From a virus (taxonomy: Duplodnaviria; Caudoviricetes), in IMG/VR virus record IMGVR_UViG_3300033148_006757, positions 1-57,747 of that record: a stretch of 57,747 nucleotides of DNA; one strand, 5' to 3'. Made by a program: the position numbers and the translations under genes. Positions 40,056 to 53,489 of this stretch are shown here, piece by piece. Under the pieces are notes generated by a model. The model worked only from the letters and a program-made list of their open reading frames with translations, did not search any database and was not told where the DNA came from. The stretch's first letter is position 1, and each line of letters begins with the position of its first letter.

Positions 40056-40295
40056 ATGAGAGGAAGAAAAAGCGAGAGAAAAGGACTGTTATTACGGATA
40101 TACTGGAACCTTCGAGTTTCGATGGAAGTAGAGGAAATAATAGAAGTACTCAAATCTAATCCGAGTTTTGAAGACCCGGACGAAAGTACTAAAGACGTAG
40201 AGATAAAGAGAAAGATAGTTCATTTAACTAGGGCAATGGATTCAGTACTGACTATGGGAAAAGAGGAGGCTATACCATTCGAGGACCATAGATGA
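40056..40295 (+). CDS. hypothetical protein
   Basis: ORF with GGAGG upstream; stop overlaps next start. Confidence 0.55.
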   Translation: MRGRKSERKGLLLRIYWNLRVSMEVEEIIEVLKSNPSFEDPDESTKDVEIKRKIVHLTRAMDSVLTMGKEEAIPFEDHR

Positions 40296-41071
40296 ACCCC
40301 CAGCTAACTGAATTCGGAATATTCTCCGGGAATAATTTGGATAAGGTCTATAAAGAGGCTATGACCAAGATCCTGAAGGATGGGTCGGATTTAACCTTCG
40401 GAGATAAAGATGAGGTTAAAGAAGCCAGGGAGATATTCGGTATCATGCATCTCTATGGAAATGCTCTTAAAGATGTCCTGAAGGGGAAGACTCCAAAAGG
40501 ATTTAAATATACGGGATCACAAGTAAGAGCTCTTATGGATACGTTTGTAGCCAATGCTATTAATCCTACGGGCTTTGAGTATACCTATCCTGAGATATTG
40601 AGAAATCAACCAGCACAGGGAATGATAAATAGAGAGAAACATACTAACATGGACCAGATCGTCCTATCTCAGAATTTATTGAGAACGGATATAATGGATA
40701 GGATAAAGAGCAATCGAAATGTCGGATGGATCGGTAATCCTGGCTTCACTTATAGTAGGGATAAACCTTGTTTTAACTGGTATCAACTACGCTATATGGG
40801 TCACAGAAAGACCGTATTGGGTAAAGAAATTCCGATGGTGTCATTCAGAATGCTATTTCGATCCCATGATTGGGGAGATGCCGTAATGGGCAATGCTTCT
40901 TCAATAGGGCATGGGTTTAATGAACTAGTAATAAAGCCCCTAGGGGGAGAGATGCTAGAGATGATCATAATATCTTCCTCTGCTCACATATATGAGAAAG
41001 AATCCCAGATGTGTGAAGAGGTCTTCGGGATACCTTATAAGAGATCGAAAGAAGGGAGGGGGATTTCATAG
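40292..41071 (+). CDS. thyA: thymidylate synthase, archaeal type (dUMP-type Asn)
   Basis: GFEYTY, KPCF (catalytic Cys), FRSHDWGDAVMGN (Asn at the E. coli N177-equivalent position), SAHIYE. Confidence 0.75.
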   Translation: MNPQLTEFGIFSGNNLDKVYKEAMTKILKDGSDLTFGDKDEVKEAREIFGIMHLYGNALKDVLKGKTPKGFKYTGSQVRALMDTFVANAINPTGFEYTYPEILRNQPAQGMINREKHTNMDQIVLSQNLLRTDIMDRIKSNRNVGWIGNPGFTYSRDKPCFNWYQLRYMGHRKTVLGKEIPMVSFRMLFRSHDWGDAVMGNASSIGHGFNELVIKPLGGEMLEMIIISSSAHIYEKESQMCEEVFGIPYKRSKEGRGIS

Positions 41072-41076
41072 AGATG

Positions 41077-41110
41077 ATCTATAAATAGAATAAAGACGTA
41101 TTAGTAATTA
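41077..41110 (+). promoter_or_regulatory. TATA promoter with AAGACGTATTA motif
   Basis: ATCTATAAATAGAATAAAGACGTATTAGT. Confidence 0.65.
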
Positions 41111-41129
41111 CAAGGATTGAATAGAAACA

Positions 41130-41221
41130 GCCCATCAAAGGTCAAATCTGGAGAGGCCTACTGTCAATTAGATTACCTCTAAAATATCATCCCAGTCTCC
41201 CAGAGACTTAATTTGATGGGT
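41130..41221 (+). other. predicted structured 5' leader / candidate ncRNA
   Basis: CCCATCAAA (41131) / TTTGATGGG (41212) enclosing AGAGG/CCTCT and AGTCTC/GAGACT stems. Confidence 0.45.
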
Positions 41222-41249
41222 CATTTCATACGGAGGTAATAAAATTACA

Positions 41250-42143
41250 TTGAAAGAAACTTTAAGACCAAAGACTCTAGAGAAGTTCCGAGGTCATGAA
41301 GATATAAAAAAATCAGTCAATAATCTACTTGAATCAGACAGCCGACAGGATATAATTCTATTCGGTCCGCCTGGAACTGGTAAAACCACATTGGCTCGAA
41401 TCATCGGCTATCATTACTACGAAGAGAGTTATGAAGTAGCCATGATGGATCTAAATGCCAGTGATGAAAATGGAGTAGATGTTATTCGAACTCGGGTAGC
41501 GAATAAAGCTCGGGCTAGAAGTATGGAATCCGGAAAACCACAGATTATATTCCTGGATGAAGCAGATGCATTAACCCCTCAGGCTCAGATGGCTTTGAGG
41601 AGAACCATGGAGGATAATGATGCTAATTGTATTTTTATATTAGCAACTAACAACCTAAATGCTATTATAGAACCGATACAATCGCGTTGTAGTGCTCATA
41701 TATATCATTTAGATAGATTAGAAGACTCTGAAATTCATCTATTACTCAATGATATAGCTAAGAAAATGCAAGTAAGTAGTCCAGATATACCTTATCTAGA
41801 TATCATTAAGAAAGCAAATGGTGATGCTAGATCTTGCGTCGATCTATTTGAGAGCTGGATGAATGGGTCGGATACAAAAAAGAATACTGAGTCATTAGTG
41901 GAGCTATTAGAGCTATTAGATAGTGATGAGGAGATCGAAACCTATCCTCTCTTAGCATATATAGAAGCTAAGGATCTAACGGCCTTAAGTATGCTGATAT
42001 TAGGGAGTAATGTGTATTCCTTATCGGAGAAGACCACACTGAACAGAATAATTGCTGCATGTGACTTCAGAATTCAGAGGAGCCATAACCCCGATATACA
42101 TTTGATAGATATGCTTAATAGAATCTGGAAGGAGATCAGATAA
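41250..42143 (+). CDS. rfcS: clamp loader (replication factor C small subunit-like)
   Basis: LRPKTL, GPPGTGKTT, LNASDENG, FLDEAD, AQMALRR, IQSRC, GDAR. Confidence 0.92.
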   Translation: MKETLRPKTLEKFRGHEDIKKSVNNLLESDSRQDIILFGPPGTGKTTLARIIGYHYYEESYEVAMMDLNASDENGVDVIRTRVANKARARSMESGKPQIIFLDEADALTPQAQMALRRTMEDNDANCIFILATNNLNAIIEPIQSRCSAHIYHLDRLEDSEIHLLLNDIAKKMQVSSPDIPYLDIIKKANGDARSCVDLFESWMNGSDTKKNTESLVELLELLDSDEEIETYPLLAYIEAKDLTALSMLILGSNVYSLSEKTTLNRIIAACDFRIQRSHNPDIHLIDMLNRIWKEIR

Positions 42144-42961
42144 TGACAGGGGAATTCCAGATCAGAGCGGGATTATTGGCCAATCATATGAAAAGAGCCT
42201 CTTTCTGTACTGATATCAGGGATATAATCCTGGAGATAAACGAAGGAGTAATGAAAACCGGAGCTGTTGGGGCGGCTAATGATAGAATAGCAATCATCCG
42301 AACTTCTCTCGAAAACCCGGAGGAGAGTTTCGATACTTTAGGGATTCCTAACATCTATAAGGTTATCGATAAGATCGGTAATTTCCGACCGGAGGATATG
42401 ATATGGTTGAAGATTGATGAAAATAATCAGATGAAAGTCATTAGGACTAAGCCTAAGAAAACTTACACTATATCGACTGTGGAGGACATCACCCAGATAC
42501 GATCGAAGTCGGTTTATGATATATGGCCCGATGCAGAGAAGATGGAGATGTGTTTGAAAGTAGGAGATAAGCCCACTCAGAAGGCCGGTAATATAAAAGC
42601 TATTCTGAGGATACCGAATTTATCTGAGGCCCAGAAATTATTCAAAAACAAGGATGTTTTCACAGATGAAGTGGAGCTGACTGTTTTCCCTGAGGGCAAT
42701 ATAGAAATCATGGGACGGGACGAAGATGATATAGGGGGAGATTTTTTTGAGGTTGAACCGATATTTAAACCTGAGAGAAAAATGTCCTCGGGGTATAGTG
42801 GATTGATTGAAGTAATGAAAGCACTCAACCCGAAGGCGGATATCACTATGTATATTGGAGATGGAACTATGTCTCTGATGATAGTGGAGAAGTATGATAC
42901 CCCCGAAGAGTCATATGAGAGCATATATATTGTGATGCCTAGAATACTGAGATGGAGGTAA
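42143..42961 (+). CDS. putative sliding clamp (PCNA-like)
   Basis: Adjacent to RFC; ~270 aa; C-terminal YIVMPRI resembles the PCNA terminal strand. Confidence 0.6.
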   Translation: MTGEFQIRAGLLANHMKRASFCTDIRDIILEINEGVMKTGAVGAANDRIAIIRTSLENPEESFDTLGIPNIYKVIDKIGNFRPEDMIWLKIDENNQMKVIRTKPKKTYTISTVEDITQIRSKSVYDIWPDAEKMEMCLKVGDKPTQKAGNIKAILRIPNLSEAQKLFKNKDVFTDEVELTVFPEGNIEIMGRDEDDIGGDFFEVEPIFKPERKMSSGYSGLIEVMKALNPKADITMYIGDGTMSLMIVEKYDTPEESYESIYIVMPRILRWR

Positions 42962-42968
42962 TAATAAG

Positions 42969-43715
42969 ATGGAAATAGAATCATATAATGAGCATCAAGG
43001 ATGGAGAGCAGAGAATTTGAATGGATTAATCCAGAGGATACATAATACTCTGGATCAGCAGGGGAGGGAAGCTTATATAGGCGGAGTCGTAAGTTTATCT
43101 AATGTAACTTTCAAGATCCAGAAGAATCGGTACTCTAATGCTATGATGGATGCCAATGTGGTAGAGCGGGATGGAGAAAGAGGATTAAACTTTCTAAAAC
43201 AGGAGTTCAAAGAATGGGTTGCAGAAGAGTATCATAATCCAGGTCAAGCCTGGAAGGAATATCCTGAGAGATGGAGATCATTCCTGAACGCCAAAGATAG
43301 AGTGGATTATTCATATAATGAAAGAATCCAGGGATGTAGTCAGCTAGAGAATGTTATTAAAACTCTAGCAAAAACCCCATACACCAGACAGGCCTATATT
43401 GAGATATATCGGGCTCCGATAGATTCATATAGGATGGGAGAGGATGATAGAATGGTTCCATGTATCCTGGGATATCATTTCACTCAAATCGGTCAAGATC
43501 TGAATATGACTGTGATGGCCCGATCTATCGATGCTAATAACTGTCTGATGAATGATATGTGGCTGGCCGATAGATTATTAAACTATATCGTGGAAATGAT
43601 CAACCGGAAATTAGAATATGCCGCTTCTAAGAAGATAAGCGAGGGCTCTATCACTTTCATGATCAGTAACCTACATTCATATCCAGATATCGTTCAGAAG
43701 GAGACGATAAGATGA
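42969..43715 (+). CDS. ThyA-superfamily enzyme, dCMP hydroxymethylase-like (Asp at specificity site)
   Basis: YSYNERI, TRQAY, VPCI, RSIDANNCLMND (compare T4 gp42 RSNDVVFGFRND), NLHSY. Confidence 0.75.
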   Translation: MEIESYNEHQGWRAENLNGLIQRIHNTLDQQGREAYIGGVVSLSNVTFKIQKNRYSNAMMDANVVERDGERGLNFLKQEFKEWVAEEYHNPGQAWKEYPERWRSFLNAKDRVDYSYNERIQGCSQLENVIKTLAKTPYTRQAYIEIYRAPIDSYRMGEDDRMVPCILGYHFTQIGQDLNMTVMARSIDANNCLMNDMWLADRLLNYIVEMINRKLEYAASKKISEGSITFMISNLHSYPDIVQKETIR

Positions 43716-44692
43716 CCAGAGATGATGAAATAAACGATTTAAGAAAAGCTATGGGCACTATGCCTAATGAGAATCTTGAACCGAATACCATGTTCTATAT
43801 AGGAGTTAACGGCATAACGGTTGAGATGGTAGAGTGTCCGGAGAATCCCTATAGAGCTATATTCGAAGCAAGTGTGGCTACTTGGGGAGATGAAAGATAT
43901 GGCACTAAATGGGGTGAGGTTAGTCCGGAGAACCGTTTCAAAGTAGTTAAGGCAGCCTTATCAGGACAGACTCTTCCGCAAGCATTGGAGCCGGTTAATT
44001 TCATGTTTATTGTGAGAGGAGCCAGTAGAGCTCAGTTTGATCAACATGCCAGGCAAAGAATAGGCGCTACCTTCTTCAGTCAAGGGGTTAGAGATAACTC
44101 TAGAGCAGATGCAGGTTTTAGGGTCCCTACCGATCTCATAGAAATGGAAGATAGAAACCTGAGTGACCGAGTACTTGAGCATATAGCAAAGGGTAAAGAG
44201 TTATATAGCGAAATCCTGGGAAATGGAAAAGGCTCTTATCAATCAGCCAGGGCAATACTCCCTATGGGTATGACTCACAACTATAAGTATGCTGCTAACT
44301 TACAGGCTATTAAAGGCTATATGGCTCAAAGACTCCAGGCATGTGAGCAGGAAGATACTGTCTTCGTAGCTATATCCATAAGAAAAGCTATAGAGGAAAA
44401 ATTCCCACTAATAGCCAGTCACCTGAAGCCGGGATGCGATTATGCCAAAAGATGTACATATCATCAATCATACACCCTGAGTGAGATGTTCGGATGCTTG
44501 TTTGCAGGATGTGGAAGATGGCCGGATGAGAATGAATACTCTACCTTTAATGGGAGCTGTAGTAATTATAGGACTATGGCGGAACAAGGAGGTATTCAGT
44601 TACGTTCCCCGACATTTTGGCGAGAATATGATACCTTTGGAAGCTTGGATGTAGAAGATAGGATGTTGTTTGAGGCCTCATATGAGTTCTAA
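43712..44692 (+). CDS. ThyX-fold flavoprotein with non-canonical active site
   Basis: ALEPVNFMF, SRAQFDQHARQR, QSARAILP, YMAQRL; RHR is RQR, the SxRY motif is GVRD; Cys-rich C-terminus. Confidence 0.75.
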   Translation: MTRDDEINDLRKAMGTMPNENLEPNTMFYIGVNGITVEMVECPENPYRAIFEASVATWGDERYGTKWGEVSPENRFKVVKAALSGQTLPQALEPVNFMFIVRGASRAQFDQHARQRIGATFFSQGVRDNSRADAGFRVPTDLIEMEDRNLSDRVLEHIAKGKELYSEILGNGKGSYQSARAILPMGMTHNYKYAANLQAIKGYMAQRLQACEQEDTVFVAISIRKAIEEKFPLIASHLKPGCDYAKRCTYHQSYTLSEMFGCLFAGCGRWPDENEYSTFNGSCSNYRTMAEQGGIQLRSPTFWREYDTFGSLDVEDRMLFEASYEF

Positions 44693-45668
44693 TACAGTAA
44701 TTCTAGGAAATGGATTATCCGCCCTGATATGGGCGGCTTATCATCCTAATTCTGTCATAATCGGACCCGGAAAACCAGGAGGAATGGCTAAAGATATGAA
44801 AGCTCCCTTTTTCCTGCATAAACATCCGGCTACCGAAAGGTTATTGAAGGAATTAGGATTAAGTACTTGTACCAGGGAAGTGAAGGTAGGATATGCCTAT
44901 AGCAGTACCGTAGGAACTTATATCCGGGATGAACCTCCTAAAGGTTTCCGAGATAGTTATTATAGGCATAGCAGATGTTTATATACTGGGTGTTCAGATT
45001 CGGTACCTAATTCTGTAATGAATCAGGGGGCAGAGAGATTTGAAGCTTATAAAATAACCCCGGATACCTTGATCAATCAACTGATAGAAGCGGTAATATC
45101 AATCGGAGGTGTGTTTTATAGGGATATTCTTAGAAAGATAGTAGTGGATAGAGAGGTAATAGGTGTATATGGTGATAGAATGAATGCTCTATATAAAGAA
45201 GTAATATCCACCATACCTATAAACATTTTTCAATCGCTCTTACCGGAGCAGGAATATAAGAGAATATATCAGGATGATAGCCTCACTAAAATATTTCTGG
45301 AAGCCAAGGAACAAGATCCATGTACGAGGGGATATGATTTCGTATATTTATGCCCCCACCAGAAACATCCGATCTTCCATTTGTTCGCCTCCCATATAAC
45401 CCGGATGAATAATAACCACGTCACAAAGAAAACTTTTTTTGAGTATACTTTCGTAGCAGGGGCTCCGATCATCGATGAAGCTATGAAACAGTTAACAGAA
45501 ATTTATGGAGAAGACCGAGTATCTTTACACCCGGAGATATCAGTTAGAAGAGATGTAGAATGGAAAAAATACCATGGCATAAAATTCCTTGGAAGGGGTG
45601 CTCAATGGGATCATTCGATTAAGGTTCAAGATGTGGTTATGGAGGCTCAGAAACATGCAGAGCAATAA
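44682..45668 (+). CDS. FAD-dependent enzyme, UDP-galactopyranose mutase / amine oxidase superfamily-like
   Basis: Rossmann VILGNGLSA...KPGG, VISTIP, C-terminal IKFLGRGAQW; start placed at second ATG behind GAGG. Confidence 0.65.
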   Translation: MSSNTVILGNGLSALIWAAYHPNSVIIGPGKPGGMAKDMKAPFFLHKHPATERLLKELGLSTCTREVKVGYAYSSTVGTYIRDEPPKGFRDSYYRHSRCLYTGCSDSVPNSVMNQGAERFEAYKITPDTLINQLIEAVISIGGVFYRDILRKIVVDREVIGVYGDRMNALYKEVISTIPINIFQSLLPEQEYKRIYQDDSLTKIFLEAKEQDPCTRGYDFVYLCPHQKHPIFHLFASHITRMNNNHVTKKTFFEYTFVAGAPIIDEAMKQLTEIYGEDRVSLHPEISVRRDVEWKKYHGIKFLGRGAQWDHSIKVQDVVMEAQKHAEQ

Positions 45669-46254
45669 ATGGGAAGTGGAGAAGGAGAAAAAAATATGTT
45701 ACTTCGATATAGACGGGGTTTTGAATGATTATCCGGAGTGTTGGTTAAGATTTCTACGGGAAAAATGGGATAGAACAGAGCTCCCTGATAGAAAAATCAG
45801 GGATTTGAATTATGTTAAAGAACAGGTTCCCTATCAGTTGTATAGGAACTCTAAATGGGAATATCGAGAAAGTGGCTATAAAACCACCATCCCCCCCACT
45901 ACTAGTGCTTCCGAATTGACCTATAATCTGCATCAGATGAGATACCATATAGTTATAATAACCGCTAGACCTGTGAAAGAGCACCCATCTTTATTCAAAC
46001 AGACTGTAGACTGGCTGCAGAAAAATAGCATCGAATTTGATGATCTTATATTCGATGGGGATAAACATATTGCAGTATTGAAAAGGTATCCTCATTTGAA
46101 ATTCGGGGTAGAAGATCACAGATATTATGCTAACCTAGTAGCCTCTTGGGGGTATCATATGTATCTTTTAGACAGTAAATACAATCAAGGTGAGATTCAT
46201 AAAAACGTCACCAGAATAAAGAGCTTGGTCGAGATATTAGAACAATCTATATAA
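45655..46254 (+). CDS. HAD-family phosphatase (5'(3')-deoxyribonucleotidase-like)
   Basis: FDIDGVL, IITAR, DK, VEDH; start ATG 45655 behind GGAGG. Confidence 0.8.
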   Translation: MQSNKWEVEKEKKICYFDIDGVLNDYPECWLRFLREKWDRTELPDRKIRDLNYVKEQVPYQLYRNSKWEYRESGYKTTIPPTTSASELTYNLHQMRYHIVIITARPVKEHPSLFKQTVDWLQKNSIEFDDLIFDGDKHIAVLKRYPHLKFGVEDHRYYANLVASWGYHMYLLDSKYNQGEIHKNVTRIKSLVEILEQSI

Positions 46255-46275: not shown

Positions 46276-46298
46276 TTATCAGAATCGGAGGTAATCGA

Positions 46299-46766
46299 AT
46301 GAATAGTCAGATAAAACCAGACCTTGTGATATTAGAAGGACCCGATAAAGCTGGTAAATCAACCATATATCAGGCCTTCCGAAGAGCTACATACTATCAA
46401 CCACTTATTATCGACCGATTTATCGGTAGTAATATAGTATATGATCAACTACACGATCGTCTAGATAAACATACAGCCCACTATAATATGGAAGTGCGTC
46501 TGAAGGATATTTTTAATCCTTTGGTAGTATATTTGTGGGCCCCGGACCACGTATTAATGAGAAGAAGTGATATGGCCGGGGACTTAGATGAAGAGAGGGA
46601 GGATATAGAAGGCATCCATAAGTACTACGAGGAATACTTAAGACTCACGCCCTTAGAGATCCTTACTATAGATACCAGTATCATTCCCGTGGACGAAGTG
46701 GTAAAGACGATAAAATGGACATTAAGTCATAGACAAAATGAGGTAAGAAACCAATGGTCAGCGTAA
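46299..46766 (+). CDS. P-loop nucleoside monophosphate kinase (thymidylate kinase-like)
   Basis: ILEGPDKAGKST, IIDRFIGSNIVY, LTIDT. Confidence 0.8.
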   Translation: MNSQIKPDLVILEGPDKAGKSTIYQAFRRATYYQPLIIDRFIGSNIVYDQLHDRLDKHTAHYNMEVRLKDIFNPLVVYLWAPDHVLMRRSDMAGDLDEEREDIEGIHKYYEEYLRLTPLEILTIDTSIIPVDEVVKTIKWTLSHRQNEVRNQWSA

Positions 46767-47401
46767 TAACAAAATCCCTTGGGAATAAGATATTTGAAGT
46801 AACCCAGTTCGGGAAGGATCGAAAGAATGGGACTCGGGAGTCTCTTAACCAGATAATGATCTTAGAATTCCCGACCCAGAAAGGTATCATTAATTCAAAT
46901 ACTAGAGAGACTGGTATAAACCTATTAATAGAGGAAATGGAATGTAAACATCTCTATGCTTCCAAGCTCGGTAAGAATTGGGATCAGAAGAACCTGGAAG
47001 AATATCATCATTACGGATTCTTAACCCATGCCCTATTACATAAAATTAACTCCGTAAAATACTTTAACGGAGAGGGCATAGATTCCAGAAAACTGATAAT
47101 ATTCTCGGACGACTGCATATCGACCATACAGTTAATAGTTAGGGAAGAGGAAGTAGGACTGTATGTACATATGAGGAGTTCTGATGCTATAAATCTATTA
47201 CCACTAGATGTAATGGCTTTGACCAATCTATTGGACAACGTTATGATGACTCATAGATTATCGGGTGAAGATAGGAGAGTAATGATCCATATAACATTCG
47301 GGTCTCTTCACATATATTCAGATGATCTGAAAATAGCCAAAGAAGTAGGAGTAAGTACCTCAGGAGAGAAGTATAATGAAACCAGCAGACGTTATTTGTG
47401 A
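46754..47401 (+). CDS. divergent ThyA-superfamily enzyme (Asp at specificity site)
   Basis: SRKLII, DDCISTIQ, MRSSDAINLLPLD, GSLHIY. Confidence 0.7.
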   Translation: MVSVITKSLGNKIFEVTQFGKDRKNGTRESLNQIMILEFPTQKGIINSNTRETGINLLIEEMECKHLYASKLGKNWDQKNLEEYHHYGFLTHALLHKINSVKYFNGEGIDSRKLIIFSDDCISTIQLIVREEEVGLYVHMRSSDAINLLPLDVMALTNLLDNVMMTHRLSGEDRRVMIHITFGSLHIYSDDLKIAKEVGVSTSGEKYNETSRRYL

Positions 47402-47833: not shown

Positions 47834-47836
47834 GGG

Positions 47837-49750
47837 GTGAATAAGTCTGAAACTCCTCTGATAATAGTTCTTGATCTAGAGACAACATCTTTGGATACGG
47901 AAGAAGCTGTTATTAAGACTGCCGGAGTATGGTCGAATAAGACGGACAAAATAGTATATCTATATGAGAAAGATCTACCCCTACTTAAAAAGGCGATACG
48001 GAAAGCGGATTTTGTAGTTACTTTTAATGGGGAACGATATGATATCCCCGTCTTATTAAACCAAAAGAATCAAGTTCTAAAGTACGAGTCCTCTATAAAG
48101 AGGAAACATATCGATTTATACCCAATAGTAAAGAAACGCGCCGGCATGTTCGGCCAGCATGTCTTTAAAGGAGGGTTCTCTTTAGACGCCATATGTAAAG
48201 CTCTAAAGATAGGAGATAAGATAGATGACTTCGACTACAGTATACTCCAGAAGGAGGTCTTTACTCCTGAGGATAAGGCTGAGATAGAACGATATCTAAA
48301 AGTAGATATAGAGCTCACTCGGGATCTTTTCCTTTTCTTAGAGGACATGTTTGAAGCCTTCAAACAATTCCTTCCTGAGAAAGACGTCCTAAAAAAGAAT
48401 TACATCAAATCCTCTCCAGGTTCTCTGGCATATAAAGTTATATGTCATTTAGCCGGATTGCCGGAATTGTATAAAGATGGTGATAGGGGAGATGATGATG
48501 ATGGCGTAGATGATTCCTTTAAAGGAGGAGATGTATTAGGACCATATGTCAACAGCAAGATAGGACGAATACGTCCAGTAGACTATGCTTCCGAATACCC
48601 GCACGCATTTATGCAGGCTAATTTATTTAGTCCGTGTAAGCATTGCATTAAAGGTGAATGTGAATATAGATATGAAGGTGGAACTATCAATAACTCTTGT
48701 ACGCTTTCACTATATGGCTCATATTGTACTAAAAACGGAATGGGTTTATTAGAAAGAACTCTTCAGAAAATGTACTTAATGCGGATCGACGCCAAGAAGG
48801 AAGTCAAGAAATATAAAAAATTATTGAAAGATAAAAATCTATCAGAGGGAGAGAAGGAAGAATATATATGGTTAAAGGAGACTAAGGATGGGCTACAATA
48901 CGCTCTTAAAATATGTATCAATACCATATATGGTTTATCCTCTTCTCCTAAATTTGTATCACTATATTTCGAGAATACAGCTCCGGATTGTACCAAGATT
49001 GGTAGATTCTGGCTTAACTATCTCCATATAGAAGCTGGGAAAGCAGGATATGAGAGGTTGTATGGTGATACCGACTCCTGTTATCTAGTCGATCCTTATG
49101 AGAGTAATGAGAAGTTACAGAAGTTCTTAGACCGGGTCTTAGGAGAGTTAAAATCTATAATGCCTTTCCCCCAGGATACTTTTAAGATTGAGATCGAGGA
49201 CCCCGTTCAGTATATACAATTCTTTAAAGATAAGGATGGGGATGGGTATAAAAAGAAAATGTATATTATGCTATTGGATGATGGGACGGTTAAGGTAAAA
49301 GGACTCCCAGTCATTAAATCTGATAGTTCCCTACTAGCCAGAGAGGTATGGAACAGATATCTTAAATCCCATATAGCCGAGCATAAGAATGCTATAGTCT
49401 CTAGAGATCTAATAGATGGATGGATGCAAGAGATATTGGAGGAGAATATCGAATATGCCGCTGTTGAGTTCAAGGTTAAAGAACCGGATACATATCAAAA
49501 CCCAAACCAGCTTCATGCCCAGATAGCGGCTGAATATGGAGAGGGAAGACATTTAATGATCAAGAACAAGATCGGATTGGGGGTGGGTAAATCGGTCAAT
49601 TATTTACCGGTGGAAGAGGCTAAAAAGATAGCCATGAGACATTTAGATTTATCTCGGACTTATTCGGATCTTTCAGATTTAATTTTATCAGACCAACTCA
49701 CTTTTGGAGATATTTTTGCATCAGACGACCAGACAATTATTGGAGGATAA
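47837..49750 (+). CDS. polB: family B DNA polymerase
   Basis: Exo LDLETT, FNGERYD, YLKVD; polymerase DYASEYP, KICINTIYG, YGDTDS, KKMY, VKG; PIP-like QLTFGDIF near C-terminus. Confidence 0.93.
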   Translation: MNKSETPLIIVLDLETTSLDTEEAVIKTAGVWSNKTDKIVYLYEKDLPLLKKAIRKADFVVTFNGERYDIPVLLNQKNQVLKYESSIKRKHIDLYPIVKKRAGMFGQHVFKGGFSLDAICKALKIGDKIDDFDYSILQKEVFTPEDKAEIERYLKVDIELTRDLFLFLEDMFEAFKQFLPEKDVLKKNYIKSSPGSLAYKVICHLAGLPELYKDGDRGDDDDGVDDSFKGGDVLGPYVNSKIGRIRPVDYASEYPHAFMQANLFSPCKHCIKGECEYRYEGGTINNSCTLSLYGSYCTKNGMGLLERTLQKMYLMRIDAKKEVKKYKKLLKDKNLSEGEKEEYIWLKETKDGLQYALKICINTIYGLSSSPKFVSLYFENTAPDCTKIGRFWLNYLHIEAGKAGYERLYGDTDSCYLVDPYESNEKLQKFLDRVLGELKSIMPFPQDTFKIEIEDPVQYIQFFKDKDGDGYKKKMYIMLLDDGTVKVKGLPVIKSDSSLLAREVWNRYLKSHIAEHKNAIVSRDLIDGWMQEILEENIEYAAVEFKVKEPDTYQNPNQLHAQIAAEYGEGRHLMIKNKIGLGVGKSVNYLPVEEAKKIAMRHLDLSRTYSDLSDLILSDQLTFGDIFASDDQTIIGG

Positions 49751-49752
49751 AT

Positions 49753-50271
49753 ATGACTACACGTTGGATAACAGAAGAGAATTTTTCTGAATTAGAAGGA
49801 CAGGAATTAAATACCGGCTTAAATGCCTTTGCTGAAAGCTCTGAGGACTTTGAATATCGAGTCGACTATAACTCTTTAACTCCGGCTCAGAAGAAAAAAT
49901 TACCCGGAATGGATGGGGAGTTTAAAGTGTATTGTAATGAGAAATCCCGTCCTCCTCCCTCTTTAAAACCAAGAGTGATCAAGGAGCGGTTTTATCCTAA
50001 GAAAGATATAATCCCCCTGATCAAGATGATACTAAAAGAGAAAGACCGAGATAAGGTCTTTGAAGCTCTGATGAGAGAAAAGATATCTCCTATAGTCTTA
50101 GGAATTTGGCTTATACGGCCATTTTCGGCCTCTAAAGAAGCTCTTGCGGTATTAGTAGAAGCCGAAAACTATGTATACCAGAATATCCCATATTACTTAG
50201 TAATAGCTTCTAAATTTAAACCCGGTGATCCTAACGTGCGTTTTAAATTTCCTAAAAAGATAAGAGAGTGA
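49753..50271 (+). CDS. hypothetical protein (possible replication accessory)
   Basis: GGAGG RBS; directly after polB. Confidence 0.6.
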   Translation: MTTRWITEENFSELEGQELNTGLNAFAESSEDFEYRVDYNSLTPAQKKKLPGMDGEFKVYCNEKSRPPPSLKPRVIKERFYPKKDIIPLIKMILKEKDRDKVFEALMREKISPIVLGIWLIRPFSASKEALAVLVEAENYVYQNIPYYLVIASKFKPGDPNVRFKFPKKIRE

Positions 50272-50275
50272 TATT

Positions 50276-50728
50276 ATGGAAGCCTACATAGGAGGAATAG
50301 AATTCGGGTTTGGGAGAGATACTAATAATAAAAATATCTCTGTCAATATATATTTTTCGGGATGTTCTAAAGAACCTAAATGTCCGGGATGCCATAATCC
50401 TCATTTATGGAAGAAGGAAAATGGGATTCTGATGACTCTCACTTATTTGAAAGAATATATAAAAATCCAATCAACCTTAGCAGATGCTCTGGTATTCCTG
50501 GGAGGAGAACCACTAGATCAGGAATTAGCCGTTTTAGAACTAGCTGTAGTGGCTGATGATTATGGAATGAATACCTATCTATATACCGGGAAAGAAGGGG
50601 ATGAGGTTTCCGAGATAGTGAAAGATACTATAGATGTCATCATATCCGGACCATATATCAGTGAACTAGCCAATCCGATGGGAACATGGCCCCCATCTAA
50701 GAACCAAGTGATAACCAGGAAAGAATAA
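50276..50728 (+). CDS. nrdG: anaerobic RNR activating enzyme (radical SAM)
   Basis: FSGCSKEPKCPGCHNP, LGGEPL, YTG, SGPY, SKNQ; adjacent to nrdD. Confidence 0.88.
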   Translation: MEAYIGGIEFGFGRDTNNKNISVNIYFSGCSKEPKCPGCHNPHLWKKENGILMTLTYLKEYIKIQSTLADALVFLGGEPLDQELAVLELAVVADDYGMNTYLYTGKEGDEVSEIVKDTIDVIISGPYISELANPMGTWPPSKNQVITRKE

Positions 50729-50729
50729 C

Positions 50730-52619
50730 ATGCTTAAGACAACAATGCACCTAGACGATGAGTTCGAGAATCTATATAACGTTATAAATCGGTCTGAGGA
50801 TGGAAAGAAATTATTGAATCTGACCGGAATAGGACGGGAACAATTGGATGTAGGTTATCTATCTCACGCCTATTTCCAAGAACATTGGGATGAAACCAGC
50901 ACTGACCCAAATGCAAATGCAAATAATATGGGGCCCATTAACTACGGGTTGGAAATATCCAAACCCCAGTTAAAATTGATAGGCTTGTATTTACTTCACC
51001 GATATGCTAGAAAAGACTTTTCGATAGAATATGCGGATAGGCTATTGAAAAATCTGGTTAAGGGAGACTACTATTTCCATGATGCTAGCGGAGTAGGTAT
51101 TCAGCAAGCTTATTGTTATGCCTATTCTACCCAGTGGGTAATGAATAATGGAATTCCTTGGGGCCAATTAAAATCATTGCCTCCTAAAAAAGCATCCAGC
51201 TATATAGCCCAAGTTGTTGAAACTACAATGGAGATGAGTATGGAATATGCTGGTGCTATAGCTCCCGCAGATGTTCTTGTACATTATGCCTATTATTCCA
51301 AGAAAGAGGGCTTATCCCATAAAGAGATAGAGAATCATCTGCAGTCCCTGGTACATATATTTAACAAACAATTCCGACCCGGCGGACAATCACCCTTCAC
51401 GAATATCAGTATATTCGACAGGCCTAATCTAGAATCCTTATTCGGCCATATATACTATGAGGATGGTTCTAGCCCGGATTATGATGAGATAATGAAAGTA
51501 CAGAGGATATTTCTGAGATGGTTCTGCAAAGGGGATCCATCAACAGGATTACCATATCGATTCCCTATCGTCACCACAAACTTTGCTCTAGGCCCGGATA
51601 AGAACATATTGGACGATGGTTTTCTATCTGAGATAGCCGAGTATAATACTGGGTTAGGGTGTCTAAATATTCATTCCGGAACTCATGGAAAACTAGCCAT
51701 GTGTTGCCGCTTTATAAATGATCCGAAGCGAATGAGACAATTCAAAACAGATACTTTTGGGAATGGCGGATTAAATATAGGTTCTCATAGAGTGATTGCT
51801 TTAGGGCTACCCCGAATCGCTTATGAGGCTAAAGGCAATTGGAAAAAGTATATGGAGATTCTAGGGAGAAGAATGGAAGAGGTGAGAGACCTTTTAGTAA
51901 TTCATAGAGAGAGAATATTAGGGAAGAGGATAGAGCAGAATTTCTTGAAGAGTTTCCAATATAATTTGGCTCATCCTAGTCATTTCTTTTCCACCTTCGG
52001 CTTTGTGGGGTTGTATGAAGCTATTTCGGCCATGGGTTTGGATGTATCTTCTGAAGAGGGATTCAATAGAGCTAAAGAAATCACTATGTTTATGGATCTG
52101 TTGGCAGCTGAGTATTCAGAGGAATTGGGGTATGCCTTCAATACCGAAGAGATACCCGCAGAAGGAGCTGCCGTGACACTGTGTCGTAAGGATAAAATAT
52201 TACATCCTGACGATGTAAAAGTGGACATCTATTCCAATCAATTCTTCCCCCTGCATTTAGACATACCTCTATTAGAACGTATATCTAAAACTGGGAAACT
52301 AATGGAAGGAGTATCAGGAGGATCCATATTGCATATCAACATAAATGAGAAGATCGAGAATCCAGCCATAATGGAGACCCTCATGAGACAGATTATAAAA
52401 GAGGGGGTGAATCACTTCGGAATTAATTATGGATTTAGCATATGTCCGAAAGACTCCGGCCACAATTCTGCAGGAATTCATCAAGAGTGTCCTATATGCG
52501 GAGAAACTATAGAAGATTGGATGACACGGGTAGTCGGGTATTTCGTGCCTGTGAGTAAGTGGAATCCGACCAGAAGAGAGATAGACTTTAAGGGTAGACA
52601 ATGGTATAAGGAGGTATGA
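50730..52619 (+). CDS. nrdD: class III anaerobic ribonucleoside-triphosphate reductase (no ATP cone)
   Basis: YFHD, YCYA, QSPFTN, FPIVT, MCCR, PAEG, SGGSI, CPICG, RVVGY. Confidence 0.93.
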   Translation: MLKTTMHLDDEFENLYNVINRSEDGKKLLNLTGIGREQLDVGYLSHAYFQEHWDETSTDPNANANNMGPINYGLEISKPQLKLIGLYLLHRYARKDFSIEYADRLLKNLVKGDYYFHDASGVGIQQAYCYAYSTQWVMNNGIPWGQLKSLPPKKASSYIAQVVETTMEMSMEYAGAIAPADVLVHYAYYSKKEGLSHKEIENHLQSLVHIFNKQFRPGGQSPFTNISIFDRPNLESLFGHIYYEDGSSPDYDEIMKVQRIFLRWFCKGDPSTGLPYRFPIVTTNFALGPDKNILDDGFLSEIAEYNTGLGCLNIHSGTHGKLAMCCRFINDPKRMRQFKTDTFGNGGLNIGSHRVIALGLPRIAYEAKGNWKKYMEILGRRMEEVRDLLVIHRERILGKRIEQNFLKSFQYNLAHPSHFFSTFGFVGLYEAISAMGLDVSSEEGFNRAKEITMFMDLLAAEYSEELGYAFNTEEIPAEGAAVTLCRKDKILHPDDVKVDIYSNQFFPLHLDIPLLERISKTGKLMEGVSGGSILHININEKIENPAIMETLMRQIIKEGVNHFGINYGFSICPKDSGHNSAGIHQECPICGETIEDWMTRVVGYFVPVSKWNPTRREIDFKGRQWYKEV

Positions 52620-52623
52620 TAAT

Positions 52624-52953
52624 ATGAGTGGCGTAGATATTGAGTATGGAGAGCATTCCCTATCCGAGATAGGGGGTAGAATAGAAGAGATAATGAAAAA
52701 ATATTATCCAGAAAGTACAGATCAGATTGTGCCGGAGGTGATTGATGAGCTCTTAGAAGCTGTTACAGAATCATTCAATCTGAAATCCGTCGATCTGAAA
52801 CTAAAGGATCTTATTGTAGTTTCTGATAACACTCCCCAGGGGACCTGTGTAATGCTGGGAGAAGAGGAAAGGAAAAGGATATCTAATATCCGAGCCATAG
52901 AGTGGGATATAAAGTCTGATGAGATGGGCACATTAAGGATTGAACTGATATGA
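52624..52953 (+). CDS. hypothetical protein
   Basis: GGAGGT RBS; coupled to next gene. Confidence 0.65.
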   Translation: MSGVDIEYGEHSLSEIGGRIEEIMKKYYPESTDQIVPEVIDELLEAVTESFNLKSVDLKLKDLIVVSDNTPQGTCVMLGEEERKRISNIRAIEWDIKSDEMGTLRIELI

Positions 52954-53489
52954 GGATAATAGGAATAAGTGGGAGAGCTCATGCCGGTAAGGATACAGTG
53001 GCTGATATGCTGGTGGAGAAATACGGCTTTATTAAAATAGCCTTTGCGGATAGTCTGAAGGAAATGGTCCAGTACCATTATGGTTTTAAAAGAGAGGATT
53101 TATGGACCGATTATAAGACAAAAGAGGTCCGAAGGATATTACAAGGAACCGGGGAAATGATTAAAAGTTTAGAGGGAGATGATTTCTGGATACGTCAGGT
53201 GCAACAGAGAATAGTCTATAGAACTATGACCACTAAAGAAATCCCCCGAGTTGTGATATCCGATGTCCGATTCGCTAACGAAAAACGGTATGTAAAAGAA
53301 TGGTCGGGCATAACTATAAGGATAGATAGACCTGATACTGACGTAGTGGAATTCAATCCTGAGCATGTATCTGAACAAGAACTCAGTGGCTTTGATTATA
53401 TCGTAGATAATCGACAGGGTATAGCAGAATTAGAATGGAAAATAGATGAAGTAATGAAAAATGAAATCATATCCCCGGTCTCTAAGTGA
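52950..53489 (+). CDS. deoxynucleoside monophosphate kinase (T4 gp1-like)
   Basis: GISGRAHAGKDT, AFADSLK, RRILQGTG, ISDVRFANE, HVSE. Confidence 0.88.
   Translation: MRIIGISGRAHAGKDTVADMLVEKYGFIKIAFADSLKEMVQYHYGFKREDLWTDYKTKEVRRILQGTGEMIKSLEGDDFWIRQVQQRIVYRTMTTKEIPRVVISDVRFANEKRYVKEWSGITIRIDRPDTDVVEFNPEHVSEQELSGFDYIVDNRQGIAELEWKIDEVMKNEIISPVSK

What the first reader, a model, noticed from the sequence alone, without database searches (positions are those of the whole stretch)
40292..53489. Candidate new DNA base-hypermodification pathway in an archaeal virus: three ThyA paralogues, non-canonical ThyX, FAD enzyme, HAD phosphatase and two kinases
Seen: four thymidylate-synthase-fold genes in 7 kb (40292, 42969, 43712, 46754), interleaved with RFC and a PCNA-like gene and followed by PolB, class III RNR and a T4 gp1-like dNMP kinase. 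Established: one such enzyme suffices for dTMP, and extra ThyA-family genes in phages (T4 gp42, SPO1 dUMP hydroxymethylase) make modified nucleotides before replication. Inference: 40292 supplies dTMP, while 42969/43712/44682/45655/46299/46754 build a C5-modified dCMP, possibly sugar-bearing, that is phosphorylated and incorporated. No classical DNA glycosyltransferase is visible, so any decoration would occur at the nucleotide level. I know of no characterised pathway with this exact gene set, especially in archaeal viruses.
Basis: partly seen in the sequence, partly recalled or inferred. Interest (0 to 1): 0.92.

Follow-up and report, generated by a model that had tools for sequence, protein, structure and literature searches.

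The report
Viral pyrimidine-modification gene island beside polymerase
A tailed virus of an anaerobic, probably archaeal host carries, next to its DNA polymerase, three thymidylate-synthase-like genes, an altered ThyX, an unknown flavoprotein, a nucleotidase and nucleotide kinases, most of which form a gene module shared by many uncultured viruses that probably makes an unusual DNA base.

Summary
The window encodes three ThyA-family proteins (40292, 42969, 46754) and one ThyX-fold protein (43712). It also encodes a GR2-type flavoprotein, an NT5C-type HAD nucleotidase, a dTMP-kinase-like and a T4 gp1-like kinase, an RFC-like loader, PolB and NrdDG.

The cluster has two layers:
- **Conserved module.** 43712-44682-45655-46299-46754 recurs in 77 fetched loci. 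These fall into 50 groups at 90% identity. In 33 of 33 groups with full flanks the ThyX-like gene sits with the flavoprotein, nucleotidase and kinase. The small ThyA-like gene is present in 24 of 33 and is fused to the kinase in 7 groups.
- **Lineage-specific genes.** 40292 and 42969 occur only in this ~62-kb virus lineage.

Relatives insert tailoring genes into the module (SDR epimerase, GT4, radical SAM, methyltransferase). The window has none of these.

Two ThyA-likes carry the cytosine-type Asp; one keeps the uracil-type Asn. The ThyX-like keeps its nucleotide-binding arginines but has lost His79, Ser88 and Tyr91.

Best reading (0.55): a pre-replicative pathway for a C5-modified pyrimidine, most likely deoxycytidine, without sugar in this virus. 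The closest known systems are T4 gp42/gp1 and the RB69 5-hydroxycytosine cluster. The signature residue of the RB69-type enzyme (D169N) is absent.

Other first-stage notes of this scan saw the altered ThyX here and on one other genome.

The parts
37679..38302 (+). Archaeal-type (DCD-fold) dUTPase. It supplies dUMP. It may stand in for the NTP-pyrophosphatase domain that the nucleotidase of relatives carries.
   Evidence: NF002598 E 4.3e-45, 153 bits against a cut-off of 130. PF22769 E 1.9e-23.
40292..41071 (+). TSa: archaeal-type ThyA, uracil-type (Asn at E. coli position 177, catalytic Cys, RSHD). Probable dTMP synthase. dUMP hydroxymethylase is not excluded.
   Evidence: TIGR03283 E 6e-14. 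Profile against PDB ThyA 3.9e-9, with alignment. 21 homologues. 0 of 77 module loci.
41250..42143 (+). RFC small-subunit-like clamp loader (context).
   Evidence: NF001679 E 1.8e-54. AAA E 6e-20.
42143..42961 (+). 272-aa ORF of unknown family.
   Evidence: No hit in Pfam, PHROGs or NCBIfam.
42969..43715 (+). TSb: full-length ThyA-family enzyme, cytosine-type (Asp at 177, Asp at 169, Met three residues before the catalytic Cys). Lineage-specific. Candidate dCMP C5-methyl- or hydroxymethyl-transferase.
   Evidence: PF00303 E 8e-8. phrog_160 E 2.9e-19. Its profile's only PDB hit is T4 dCMP hydroxymethylase, 1.1e-4. 15 homologues at 54-82% identity.
43712..44692 (+). ThyXL: ThyX-fold flavoprotein with altered active site and a tail of about 90 aa carrying conserved Cys242, Cys248, Cys267 and Cys283. 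Anchor of the conserved module.
   Evidence: PF02511 E 8.5e-13. AF2 pLDDT 89 and Foldseek ThyX 2e-10. Alignment to T. maritima ThyX. Family of 185 proteins.
44682..45668 (+). FADL: flavoprotein of about 330 aa, GR2 (UGM/PPOX/amine-oxidase) fold, closest by profile to UDP-galactopyranose mutase. Overlaps the end of ThyXL by 11 nt. The ORF can also be read from a TTG at 44670.
   Evidence: Profile against PDB UGM 2.8e-8. AF2 pLDDT 83.5 and Foldseek 6e-14 to 1e-12. 423 representative clusters at E<=1e-30.
45655..46254 (+). HAD phosphatase of the NT5C (5'-deoxynucleotidase) type with motif FDIDGV. It lacks the N-terminal NTP-pyrophosphatase domain present in 54 of 55 homologues.
   Evidence: PF06941 E 2.6e-9. 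Translation. N-terminal domain dUTPase_2/MazG in relatives.
46299..46766 (+). TMK-like nucleotide kinase (P-loop GPDKAGKST). Homologous to RB69 gp45. Fused to the TSc-type enzyme in 11 loci.
   Evidence: PF02223 E 3.9e-9. phrog_761 E 5.8e-15. Fusions. HMM against RB69 gp45 9.3e-16.
46754..47401 (+). TSc: short ThyA-fold enzyme, cytosine-type (Asp at 177, Asp at 169, Ser three residues before the catalytic Cys). Member of the module family. Candidate dCMP C5-modifying enzyme.
   Evidence: Profile against T4 dCMP hydroxymethylase 5.2e-16 and 9iqu/9iqc 4.7e-12. HMM against RB69 gp48 1.3e-16. Invariant R112, C121, R141, S142, D152 and H186 in 26 sequences.
47837..49750 (+). Family B DNA polymerase. 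The module lies beside the polymerase gene here and in relatives.
   Evidence: PF00136 E 9.7e-16. PolB beside the module in 11 of 33 groups. UDG-polymerase fusions directly upstream of ThyXL in marine loci.
50276..52619 (+). NrdG activase and NrdD anaerobic ribonucleotide reductase (context: an anoxic host).
   Evidence: PF13353 E 5.2e-18 and PF13597 E 2.6e-87.
52950..53489 (+). T4 gp1-like deoxynucleotide monophosphate kinase.
   Evidence: PF21448 E 9.2e-13, 48.7 bits against a cut-off of 27.1.

Best explanation
The stretch is a nucleotide-pool reprogramming island that feeds the virus's own PolB. It has two layers.

**Layer 1 (this ~62-kb lineage only).** The archaeal-type dUTPase (37679) gives dUMP. 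TSa (40292, uracil-type ThyA) turns it into dTMP. TSb (42969, cytosine-type ThyA with the full folate-type residue set) adds a one-carbon group to C5 of dCMP.

**Layer 2.** This is a five-gene module shared by many uncultured viruses.
- TSc (46754) is a cytosine-type ThyA-fold enzyme homologous to T4 gp42 and RB69 gp48. It modifies C5 of dCMP.
- The TMK-like kinase (46299), fused to TSc in relatives, and the gp1-like kinase (52950) phosphorylate the product.
- ThyXL (43712) is a ThyX-fold flavoenzyme. It still binds a pyrimidine mononucleotide but no longer has the thymidylate-synthase residues, so it makes a different C5 product.
- The FADL flavoprotein (44682) and the nucleotidase (45655) work as a pair. 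In relatives the nucleotidase carries an NTP-pyrophosphatase domain and would destroy a canonical pyrimidine dNTP.

The modified dNTP is then incorporated during replication. This virus has no sugar genes, so the base is probably not glycosylated.

**Shown:** fold and family of each protein, the residue states, and the co-occurrence and fusions.

**Inferred:** substrates, products, the order of steps, and that the DNA is modified at all.
For: **Module.** The four core genes co-occur.
- In 41 of 41 full-flank loci ThyXL sits with FADL, HAD and TMK; in 32 of 41 TSc is also present.
- At 90% identity this is 33 of 33 groups for the three partners and 24 of 33 for TSc.
- TMK and TSc are one ORF in 11 loci, which fall into 7 groups.
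- In the window the genes overlap: 43712/43715, 44682/44692, 45655/45668, 46754/46766.

**TSc.**
- The catalytic Cys, both Arg, Ser, His and the cytosine-type Asp are invariant across 26 sequences that share 17% mean column identity.
- The best solved relatives are T4 dCMP hydroxymethylase (5.2e-16) and 9iqu/9iqc (4.7e-12).
- The TSc and TMK profiles hit RB69 gp48, an experimentally proven 5-hydroxy-dCMP synthase, at 1.3e-16, and its neighbour gp45 at 9.3e-16 (PMC13326640 sections 24-25, read).

**TSb.**
- It has Asp at 177 and Asp at 169.
- The only PDB hit of its profile is T4 dCMP hydroxymethylase.

**ThyXL.**
- The counterparts of T. maritima R78, R80, Q75, R90, R147 and R174 are kept.
- H79 is Gln, S88 is Gly, and Y91 is Asp or Asn (invariants).
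- 5 of 27 ThyXL-bearing virus records also carry a canonical ThyX scoring 132-163 bits, against 43-53 bits for their own ThyXL copies.
- One record carries a canonical ThyA, and the window carries TSa. This argues that ThyXL is not simply the dTMP synthase.

**Exclusion logic.** 54 of 55 HAD homologues carry an N-terminal dUTPase_2/MazG-type NTP-pyrophosphatase domain.

**Tailoring genes inside the module in relatives.**
- SDR epimerase, 25 of 33 groups.
- GT4, 7 of 33 groups.
- Aldo-keto reductase plus radical SAM/SPASM.
- Class I methyltransferase.
- PLP enzyme.

**Kinase.** A T4 gp1-like dNMP kinase is present.
Against: - No chemistry was measured and no reads were examined for modification.
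- Archaeal tailed viruses commonly carry ThyX, thymidylate kinase, 5'-deoxyribonucleotidase, MazG and Dcd, and these have been read as ordinary pyrimidine metabolism (PMC8651126, passages seen).
- 4 of 7 complete ThyXL-bearing virus records have no other thymidylate synthase. There ThyXL could simply be the dTMP synthase.
- The window has no recognisable dCTPase. Its nucleotidase lacks the pyrophosphatase domain, so exclusion of a canonical base is not evident in this virus.
- None of the three ThyA-likes has the D169N signature of 5-hydroxy-dCMP synthases.
- The rule that the residue at E. coli position 143 tells methyl from hydroxymethyl fails for archaeal-type ThyA. MAG copies have Glu there. 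The products of TSa, TSb and TSc therefore cannot be read from sequence.
- The role of FADL is unknown. Its fold matches many flavoenzymes about equally well.
- Two cytosine-type enzymes in one virus are not explained.
Confidence: 0.55

Rival explanations
1. Ordinary nucleotide supply. The island only raises and balances dNTP pools. ThyXL is a divergent but working flavin-dependent dTMP synthase. The TMK-like protein is dTMP kinase. The nucleotidase and dUTPase do salvage and keep uracil out of DNA. FADL reduces the ThyX flavin. The extra ThyA-likes are redundant or decaying paralogues. The DNA is canonical.
For: - ThyX, Tmk, 5'-nucleotidase, MazG and Dcd are listed as common nucleotide-metabolism genes of archaeal tailed viruses (PMC8651126).
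- 4 of 7 complete ThyXL-bearing records have no other thymidylate synthase.
- ThyXL keeps the flavin- and nucleotide-binding arginines.
- The N-terminal domain of the nucleotidase in relatives matches dUTPase_2.
Against: - TSc keeps every catalytic residue over 26 very divergent sequences, with a cytosine-type Asp, and is fused to a kinase. That is not decay.
- ThyXL has lost H79, S88 and Y91. It coexists with a canonical ThyX in 5 records, with a canonical ThyA in one record, and with TSa in the window.
- Relatives place GT4, SDR, radical SAM, methyltransferase and PLP genes inside the module.
- The TSc-TMK pair is homologous to the RB69 gp48-gp45 pair of a proven modification pathway.
Confidence: 0.25
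2. The replaced base is thymine, not cytosine. ThyXL (or TSa) turns dUMP into 5-hydroxymethyl-dUMP or another 5-substituted dUMP. The pyrophosphatase-nucleotidase removes dTTP and dTMP, as in SPO1- or phi-e-type phages. The kinases activate the product. The cytosine-type ThyA-likes have a side role.
For: - A fused NTP-pyrophosphatase and 5'-deoxypyrimidine nucleotidase in 54 of 55 homologues resembles the dTTPase plus dTMPase logic of hydroxymethyluracil phages (PMC8989533 introduction, passage seen).
- dCMP deaminase lies nearby in 11 of 33 groups.
- ThyXL keeps the arginine that reads the uracil ring in ThyX, the R174 counterpart.
- 4 of 7 complete records have no canonical thymidylate synthase.
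Against: - The window keeps a uracil-type ThyA (TSa) that looks like a normal archaeal-type synthase. Cellular-looking MAG copies have the same acidic residue before the Cys.
- The window's nucleotidase has no pyrophosphatase domain.
- The enzyme fused to the kinase is cytosine-type in every one of the 26 aligned sequences.
Confidence: 0.13
3. This virus makes a glycosylated 5-hydroxycytosine, as RB69, DLP3 and RL38J1 do. FADL would be a UDP-galactopyranose mutase making the sugar donor, and an unrecognised glycosyltransferase would attach it.
For: - FADL's best profile hit is UDP-galactopyranose mutase, 2.8e-8. In the printed alignment the column of FADL's nearly invariant Arg242 pairs with the Arg of the mutase's PFYRAT stretch.
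- In 15 relatives TSc has Asn at position 169, the published 5-hydroxy-dCMP synthase signature. All 15 have the SDR epimerase and 7 have GT4.
- About 4 kb of the genome is missing from the window. Its own ThyXL protein was also seen on a 61,846-bp contig.
Against: - The window's TSc, TSb and TSa all have Asp at 169.
- No glycosyltransferase or SDR was found in the window by Pfam on 13 unassigned ORFs of 250 aa or more or by profiles built from the relatives.
- The hydroxylation needs O2 (PMC13326640 section 24), while this virus encodes only the anaerobic reductase NrdD.
- FADL is present in all 33 groups whether or not sugar genes are there.
Confidence: 0.07

Closest known systems
5-hydroxycytosine (arabinosyl/hexosyl) pathway of phages RB69, DLP3 and RL38J1 (Lee et al., Nucleic Acids Res 2026, PMC13326640; sections 24, 25, 27, 28 and 29 read)
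   Same: - A cytosine-type ThyA homologue sits next to a thymidylate-kinase-like 'nucleotide kinase'.
- A HAD phosphatase and a gp1-like dNMP kinase are present.
- All lie beside PolB and the clamp loader (RB69 map).
- The TSc and TMK profiles hit RB69 gp48 and gp45 at 1.3e-16 and 9.3e-16.
- Relatives of the module also carry GT4 and a sugar epimerase.
   Different: - The window's enzymes lack D169N and the acidic residue at 143.
- There are no glycosyltransferase, sugar isomerase or nucleotidyltransferase genes.
- The HAD profile does not hit RB69 gp51.
- RB69 has no ThyX-like or FADL-like gene; these profiles found no hit.
- The host is probably anoxic, whereas the RB69 reaction uses O2.
T4 hydroxymethylcytosine pathway (gp42 dCMP hydroxymethylase, gp1 dNMP kinase, gp56 dCTPase)
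   Same: - It is pre-replicative: a ThyA-fold enzyme with Asp at 177 and Asp at 169, followed by a dedicated kinase.
- T4 gp42 is the best solved relative of both the TSc profile and the TSb profile.
- A gp1-family kinase is present.
   Different: - The residue three before the catalytic Cys is Met (TSb) or Ser (TSc), not Asp.
- No dCTPase was recognised in the window.
- There are two cytosine-type enzymes instead of one.
- The ThyX-like and FADL proteins have no T4 counterpart.
Flavin-dependent thymidylate synthase ThyX (T. maritima TM0449 and relatives)
   Same: - The fold matches: Foldseek E 2e-10, TM 0.77 normalised by the target. The Pfam hit is above the cut-off.
- The counterparts of R78, R80, R90, R147 and R174 are kept.
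   Different: - H79 is Gln, S88 is Gly, Y91 is Asp or Asn, and there is no His at the H53 position.
- It scores below the TIGR02170 equivalog cut-off (36 against 88 bits).
- It has an extra Cys-rich tail.
- It is always linked to FADL, the nucleotidase and a kinase.
- No cultured phage has it; the best tblastn match is 26-29% identity to ordinary ThyX.
UDP-galactopyranose mutase (Aspergillus fumigatus and other solved enzymes)
   Same: - It has the GR2 flavoprotein fold.
- It is the best profile hit, 2.8e-8, across the central domain.
- The diphosphate-binding Arg is shared. The C-terminal GR..W motif pairs only in a non-significant third stretch of the match.
   Different: - It is about 300-330 aa against 484-519 for the matching mutase chains.
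- Other flavoenzymes (PPOX, amine oxidases, an M. mazei oxidoreductase) match the fold as well or better.
- It occurs without sugar genes in 8 of 33 groups and in the window.
- It is paired with a nucleotidase even in Mycobacterium phage Hawkeye gp70-gp71.

Membership tests
ThyA thymidylate synthase superfamily (PF00303) | Significant match to the family model | tested here: met
   - TSb: 32.2 bits against a cut-off of 24.3.
- TSa: no Pfam hit, but TIGR03283 E 6e-14 and its profile hits ThyA chains at 3.9e-9.
- TSc: 17.6 bits, below the cut-off, but its profile hits T4 gp42 at 5.2e-16.
ThyA thymidylate synthase superfamily (PF00303) | Catalytic Cys (E. coli C146) and the phosphate-binding Arg-Ser (R166, S167) | tested here: met
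   - TSa: PCFNW and RSHD.
- TSb: PCILG and RSID.
- TSc: DCIST and RSSD.
These are invariant in each family alignment and line up with a canonical ThyA.
dTMP synthase (uracil-specific ThyA) | Asn at E. coli position 177 | tested here: met
   Met for TSa only (invariant N201). TSb and TSc have Asp, so they are not filed here.
T4-type dCMP hydroxymethylase | Asp at 177, Asp at 169 and an acidic residue at 143 | tested here: inconclusive
   Asp177 and Asp169 are met for TSb and TSc. Position 143 is Met (TSb) or Ser (TSc), not acidic. The 143 rule is itself doubtful for archaeal-type ThyA.
5-hydroxy-dCMP synthase (Lee et al. 2026) | Asn in place of Asp169 (D169N), the published diagnostic residue | tested here: not met
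   TSa RSHD, TSb RSID and TSc RSSD against RB69 gp48 RSQN. By contrast, 15 relatives of TSc do have Asn.
Flavin-dependent thymidylate synthase ThyX | ThyX fold and Pfam Thy1 match | tested here: met
   PF02511 48.9 bits against a cut-off of 24.8. Foldseek E 2e-10.
Flavin-dependent thymidylate synthase ThyX | ThyX motif RHR...S.RY (H79, S88 and Y91 of T. maritima) and the equivalog score | tested here: not met
   The motif reads RQR and G.RD. H79 is Gln, S88 is Gly, Y91 is Asp or Asn. TIGR02170 gives 36.1 bits against a cut-off of 87.9. The residue names come from recalled knowledge. I checked them against the PDB titles naming H53D, R90A, Y91F and R174K mutants.
UDP-galactopyranose mutase | Specific sequence similarity beyond the shared flavoprotein fold, including the diphosphate-binding Arg | tested here: inconclusive
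   The profile hit of 2.8e-8 pairs the Arg column with the Arg of PFYRAT in the mutase; Arg242 is nearly invariant. The next enzyme classes score 1e-5 to 7e-5. The fold search does not separate mutase from PPOX or amine oxidase. The protein is about 170 aa shorter.
NT5C-type HAD 5'-deoxynucleotidase | Family match and the DxDx(T/V) nucleophile motif | tested here: met
   PF06941 37.6 bits against a cut-off of 24.8. FDIDGV is in the translation. Substrate not tested.
dTMP kinase | Family match, P-loop and equivalog score | tested here: inconclusive
   PF02223 36.9 bits against a cut-off of 27 and P-loop GPDKAGKST. TIGR00041 gives 36.9 bits against a cut-off of 83.25. Its closest characterised neighbour is the RB69 gp45 'nucleotide kinase'.
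T4 gp1 deoxynucleotide monophosphate kinase | Match to PF21448 above the cut-off | tested here: met
   48.7 bits against a cut-off of 27.1, in two stretches.

The most novel reading that the evidence does not exclude
The ThyX-like, FADL, pyrophosphatase-nucleotidase, kinase and small-ThyA module is a so far undescribed pre-replicative pathway used by many uncultured viruses, including abundant marine ones. Its ThyX-fold enzyme would be the first of that fold to make a non-thymine C5-modified pyrimidine nucleotide. Its UGM-like flavoprotein would act on a nucleotide rather than on a sugar donor. The product would be a DNA base not yet catalogued. In the window's lineage a second cytosine-type ThyA (TSb) would add a further modification.
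Probability: 0.35. Interest if true: 0.88.

Novelty: new variant of a known kind. Interest (0 to 1): 0.72.

Why it matters
Modified bases let viruses escape restriction and CRISPR. They also confound sequencing and have given useful enzymes.

All characterised pre-replicative pyrimidine modifications start from ThyA-fold enzymes. This module suggests that a ThyX-fold flavoenzyme and a UGM-like flavoprotein were recruited as well.

The module is widespread:
- 185 ThyXL proteins.
- 423 FADL clusters at E<=1e-30.
- 50 non-redundant loci.

The ThyX-like gene has no counterpart in any cultured phage of the searched collection. Only the FADL-nucleotidase pair was seen in a cultured phage.

The module always lies beside the polymerase gene. 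It gives a concrete, cloneable gene set for the in vivo assay already published for ThyA homologues. It could reveal new DNA chemistry in archaeal and marine viruses.

Tried and rejected
- **Single sequences against solved structures.** TSb, ThyXL and FADL gave only non-significant hits. I replaced these searches with profile searches.
- **ThyXL alone in viral contigs.** It found nothing. The alignment A1 was needed.
- **tblastn against cultured phages.** FADL gave no match. ThyXL matched only ordinary ThyX at 26-29% identity. TSc gave weak hits to annotated hydroxymethylases.
- **Reading products from the residue at E. coli position 143.** Rejected. Archaeal-type ThyA copies in a Woesearchaeota MAG have Glu there.
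- **TSa as a hydroxymethylase.** Considered, but left open for the same reason.
- **Search for a glycosyltransferase or SDR in the window.** None was found by Pfam on 13 unassigned ORFs of 250 aa or more, by PHROGs or by profiles from the relatives. The two unknown ORFs upstream look like an OB-fold ssDNA-binding protein (weak lead) and an AAA_24 ATPase.
- **The missing ~4 kb of the genome.** Searches with the last large gene found only 38-39% relatives. A glycosyltransferase there cannot be excluded.
- **Fold search of FADL against viral models.** Uninformative.
- **The 'PCNA-like' gene.** Could not be verified.
- **Not used.** Complex prediction, the look-up of sequencing runs and read laying. 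No claim here rests on binding or reads.
- **Supplements.** The supplementary files of PMC13326640 were not opened. They list the nine metaviromic ThyA homologues that were tested and may include members of the TSc family.

Full report
**What the window is.** It is an IMG/VR virus record of 57,747 bases, classed as linear.
- It encodes an HK97-type capsid protein, a tape-measure protein and a tail protein.
- On the minus strand it has an AEP primase and an XPD-like helicase.
- From 35.5 kb onward it has a plus-strand replication and nucleotide block.
- Its own ThyX-like protein was also seen on a 61,846-bp contig. About 4 kb of the genome is therefore probably missing.
- An archaeal flavour comes from three proteins: an RFC small subunit (E 1.8e-54), an archaeal-type dUTPase above its curated cut-off, and methanogen-type ThyA matches.
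- NrdD and NrdG point to an anoxic host.
- The host domain is not proven.

**Check of the observation.**
- TSb (42969) is a clear ThyA-family protein (PF00303 E 8e-8; phrog_160 E 2.9e-19).
- TSc (46754) is weak on its own. A profile of 26 homologues hits T4 dCMP hydroxymethylase at 5.2e-16.
- TSa (40292) has no Pfam hit. It matches TIGR03283 over the whole model at 6e-14, and its family profile hits ThyA chains at 3.9e-9.
- ThyXL (43712) matches Pfam Thy1. Its model (pLDDT 89) superposes on ThyX structures.
- FADL has no Pfam hit but has a GR2 flavoprotein fold.
- The nucleotidase, both kinases, RFC, PolB and NrdDG are confirmed.
- Only the 'PCNA-like' ORF remains unverified.

**The cluster has two layers.** I collected 72 viral loci and 5 MAG loci that encode a relative of ThyXL. 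I then searched their ORFs with iterated profiles of each window protein.
- In 41 of 41 loci with at least 8 kb on both sides, ThyXL sits with FADL, the nucleotidase and the TMK-like kinase. The small ThyA-like TSc is present in 32 of 41.
- After collapsing near-identical loci (50 groups at 90% ThyXL identity; 33 with full flanks) the numbers are 33, 33, 33 and 24 of 33.
- TMK and TSc are one ORF in 11 loci, which fall into 7 groups.
- TSa, TSb, the gp1-like kinase, RFC and NrdD were found in none of the 77 loci.
- TSb has only 15 database homologues, all 54-82% identical.
- TSa, TSb and ThyXL relatives share the same 'longest contig' lengths (63,221; 62,878; 62,323; 62,010; 60,609). I infer that these are sister genomes of one ~62-kb lineage.

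**What relatives add to the module.**
- The nucleotidase of 54 of 55 homologues carries an N-terminal all-alpha NTP-pyrophosphatase domain (dUTPase_2/MazG). The window and L006 lack it.
- An SDR sugar epimerase/dehydratase family lies in the module in 25 of 33 groups.
- A GT4 glycosyltransferase lies nearby in 7 of 33 groups and a dCMP deaminase in 11 of 33.
- Single lineages insert other genes: an aldo-keto reductase and a radical SAM/SPASM enzyme, a class I methyltransferase, or a PLP enzyme.
- The module always lies by the polymerase gene. This is PolB in some loci, and in marine loci a ~1,100-aa protein with a UDG-family domain directly upstream of ThyXL.
- A fixed core with variable tailoring genes is the layout of known DNA hypermodification clusters.
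- The window has none of the sugar or tailoring genes. At the position where some relatives have the SDR gene, it has TSb.

**Residue states in the ThyA-likes.** I aligned them with a canonical bacterial ThyA, an archaeal-type ThyA and RB69 gp48. All three window proteins keep the catalytic Cys and the Arg-Ser-x-Asp motif.

| Protein | Position 177 | Position 169 | Three residues before the Cys (position 143) |
|---|---|---|---|
| TSa | Asn | Asp | Asp |
| TSb | Asp | Asp | Met |
| TSc | Asp | Asp | Ser |
| RB69 gp48 | Asp | Asn | Glu |

- The published rules (PMC13326640, sections 24 and 28) say Asp177 means dCMP, Asn169 means 5-hydroxylation, and an acidic residue at 143 means hydroxymethyl rather than methyl.
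- By these rules TSb and TSc act on dCMP and are not 5-hydroxy-dCMP synthases.
- I do not trust the 143 rule here. Archaeal-type ThyA copies in a MAG have Glu at that place.
- Among relatives, TSc has Asn169 in 15 loci. All 15 have the SDR and 7 have GT4. It has Asp or Glu in 9 loci, 5 of them without SDR. The window belongs to the second type.

**ThyXL.** The profile alignment to T. maritima ThyX keeps the counterparts of R78, R80, Q75, R90, R147 and R174.
- It replaces H79 by Gln, S88 by Gly and Y91 by Asp or Asn.
- The segment that should hold H53 reads TLPQALE.
- Residue names are recalled. The offset of 12 between chain and native numbering was checked on R90, E144, R147 and R174, which PDB titles name as mutated residues.
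- A tail of about 90 residues carries invariant C242, C248 and C267 and nearly invariant C283. It is modelled at lower confidence.
- Of 27 ThyXL-bearing virus records searched whole, 5 also have a canonical ThyX scoring 132-163 bits against 43-53 for their own ThyXL copies. Across all 27 records ThyXL scored 18-74 bits, and in two records it was not detected at all.
- One record has a canonical ThyA, and the window has TSa.
- Of the 7 complete records, 3 have a second synthase and 4 have none. ThyXL is probably not just the dTMP synthase, but that cannot be ruled out for the 4.
- No cultured phage in the collection has this family. In 185,579 species genomes it was found only on 5 MAG contigs.

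**FADL.**
- The family profile hits UDP-galactopyranose mutases best (2.8e-8). In the printed alignment the Arg of the mutase's PFYRAT stretch pairs with the column of FADL's nearly invariant Arg242. A third, non-significant stretch pairs the mutase's C-terminal GRFGSW with FADL's GR..W motif.
- The next classes score 1e-5 to 7e-5.
- The fold search does not discriminate among mutase, PPOX, amine oxidases and an M. mazei oxidoreductase.
- The family is large (423 representative clusters at E<=1e-30). Of 10 clusters looked up, none has a name other than 'hypothetical protein'.
- The FADL-nucleotidase pair also occurs, with overlapping genes, in cultured Mycobacterium phage Hawkeye (gp70 'oxidoreductase', gp71 'nucleotidase').
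- Because FADL is present whether or not sugar genes are, I think it works with the nucleotidase on a nucleotide. This is inference.

**Literature.** The closest known system is the 5-hydroxycytosine pathway (PMC13326640).
- It has a flavin- and O2-dependent ThyA homologue, a thymidylate-kinase-like gene next to it, a HAD phosphatase, a gp1-like kinase, sugar-donor genes and glycosyltransferases. All lie beside gene 43 and the clamp loader (RB69 map).
- The TSc and TMK profiles hit RB69 gp48 and gp45. The HAD, FADL and ThyXL profiles hit nothing there.
- Seven full-text searches found no paper describing the ThyX-like family, FADL or this module.
- PMC8651126 lists ThyX, Tmk, 5'-nucleotidase, MazG and Dcd as ordinary nucleotide genes of archaeal tailed viruses. 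That is the main rival reading.

**Verdict.**
The gene grouping differs, sugar at the nucleotide level has no support, and a characterised analogue exists.
- I give 0.55 to a pre-replicative C5-modified pyrimidine, most likely deoxycytidine, without sugar in this virus.
- I give 0.25 to ordinary nucleotide supply, 0.13 to thymine as the replaced base, and 0.07 to a glycosylated 5-hydroxycytosine.
- The ThyX-like and FADL core is the new element.

Noticed in passing
L034-L072 (e.g. L052:9968-10792 and 10761-11498): Marine relatives carry two adjacent, slightly overlapping ThyX-like ORFs. The first covers profile positions 6-240 without the Cys tail. The second covers about 97-305 with the tail. 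This is a tandem pair that may form a hetero-oligomer.
   Followed up: partly
L032:9989-11443: One ThyX-like ORF of 485 aa has an insertion of about 145 aa between profile positions 217 and 205-323. It could be an intein or an inserted domain.
   Followed up: no
L052:11327-13410 and about 30 marine loci: GroES- and GroEL-family genes lie directly downstream of the ThyX-like genes in the marine group.
   Followed up: no
L052:6569-9922 and other marine loci: A ~1,100-aa protein with an N-terminal UDG-family domain lies directly upstream of the ThyX-like gene. It is probably the DNA polymerase, but that was not checked. Free-standing UDG-family genes sit inside the module in L006 and L009. The window has no UDG-family gene.
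   Followed up: partly
L079:4168-5636 (Mycobacterium phage Hawkeye gp70-gp71): A cultured mycobacteriophage has the FADL-like 'oxidoreductase' and the nucleotidase as an overlapping gene pair. A FabG-like SDR lies two genes further on, and DNA polymerase III alpha follows.
   Followed up: partly
window 55951-56934 (+): A 327-aa protein matches phrog_6247 'DNA topoisomerase' at E 4.9e-75 but has no Pfam hit.
   Followed up: no
window 8789-10198 (+): An apiosidase-like (GH140-type) glycoside hydrolase with a collagen-binding-type domain lies among the virion genes.
   Followed up: no
window 4001-6000: A stretch with G+C of 0.21, against about 0.40 elsewhere, lies between small-ORF and structural regions.
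   Followed up: no
G001 (Woesearchaeota MAG): L081, L083, L085: A 1.0-Mb MAG holds three methanogen-type ThyA copies of about 220 aa (E about 1e-37 each). That is unusual for so small a genome, and some may be viral.
   Followed up: no
window 35477-36751 and 36783-37682 (+): Two ORFs without Pfam or PHROG hits. The first has weak leads to archaeal OB-fold RPA/SSB proteins (scores 0.79-0.82). The second matches viral AAA_24-type clusters at 0.97.
   Followed up: partly
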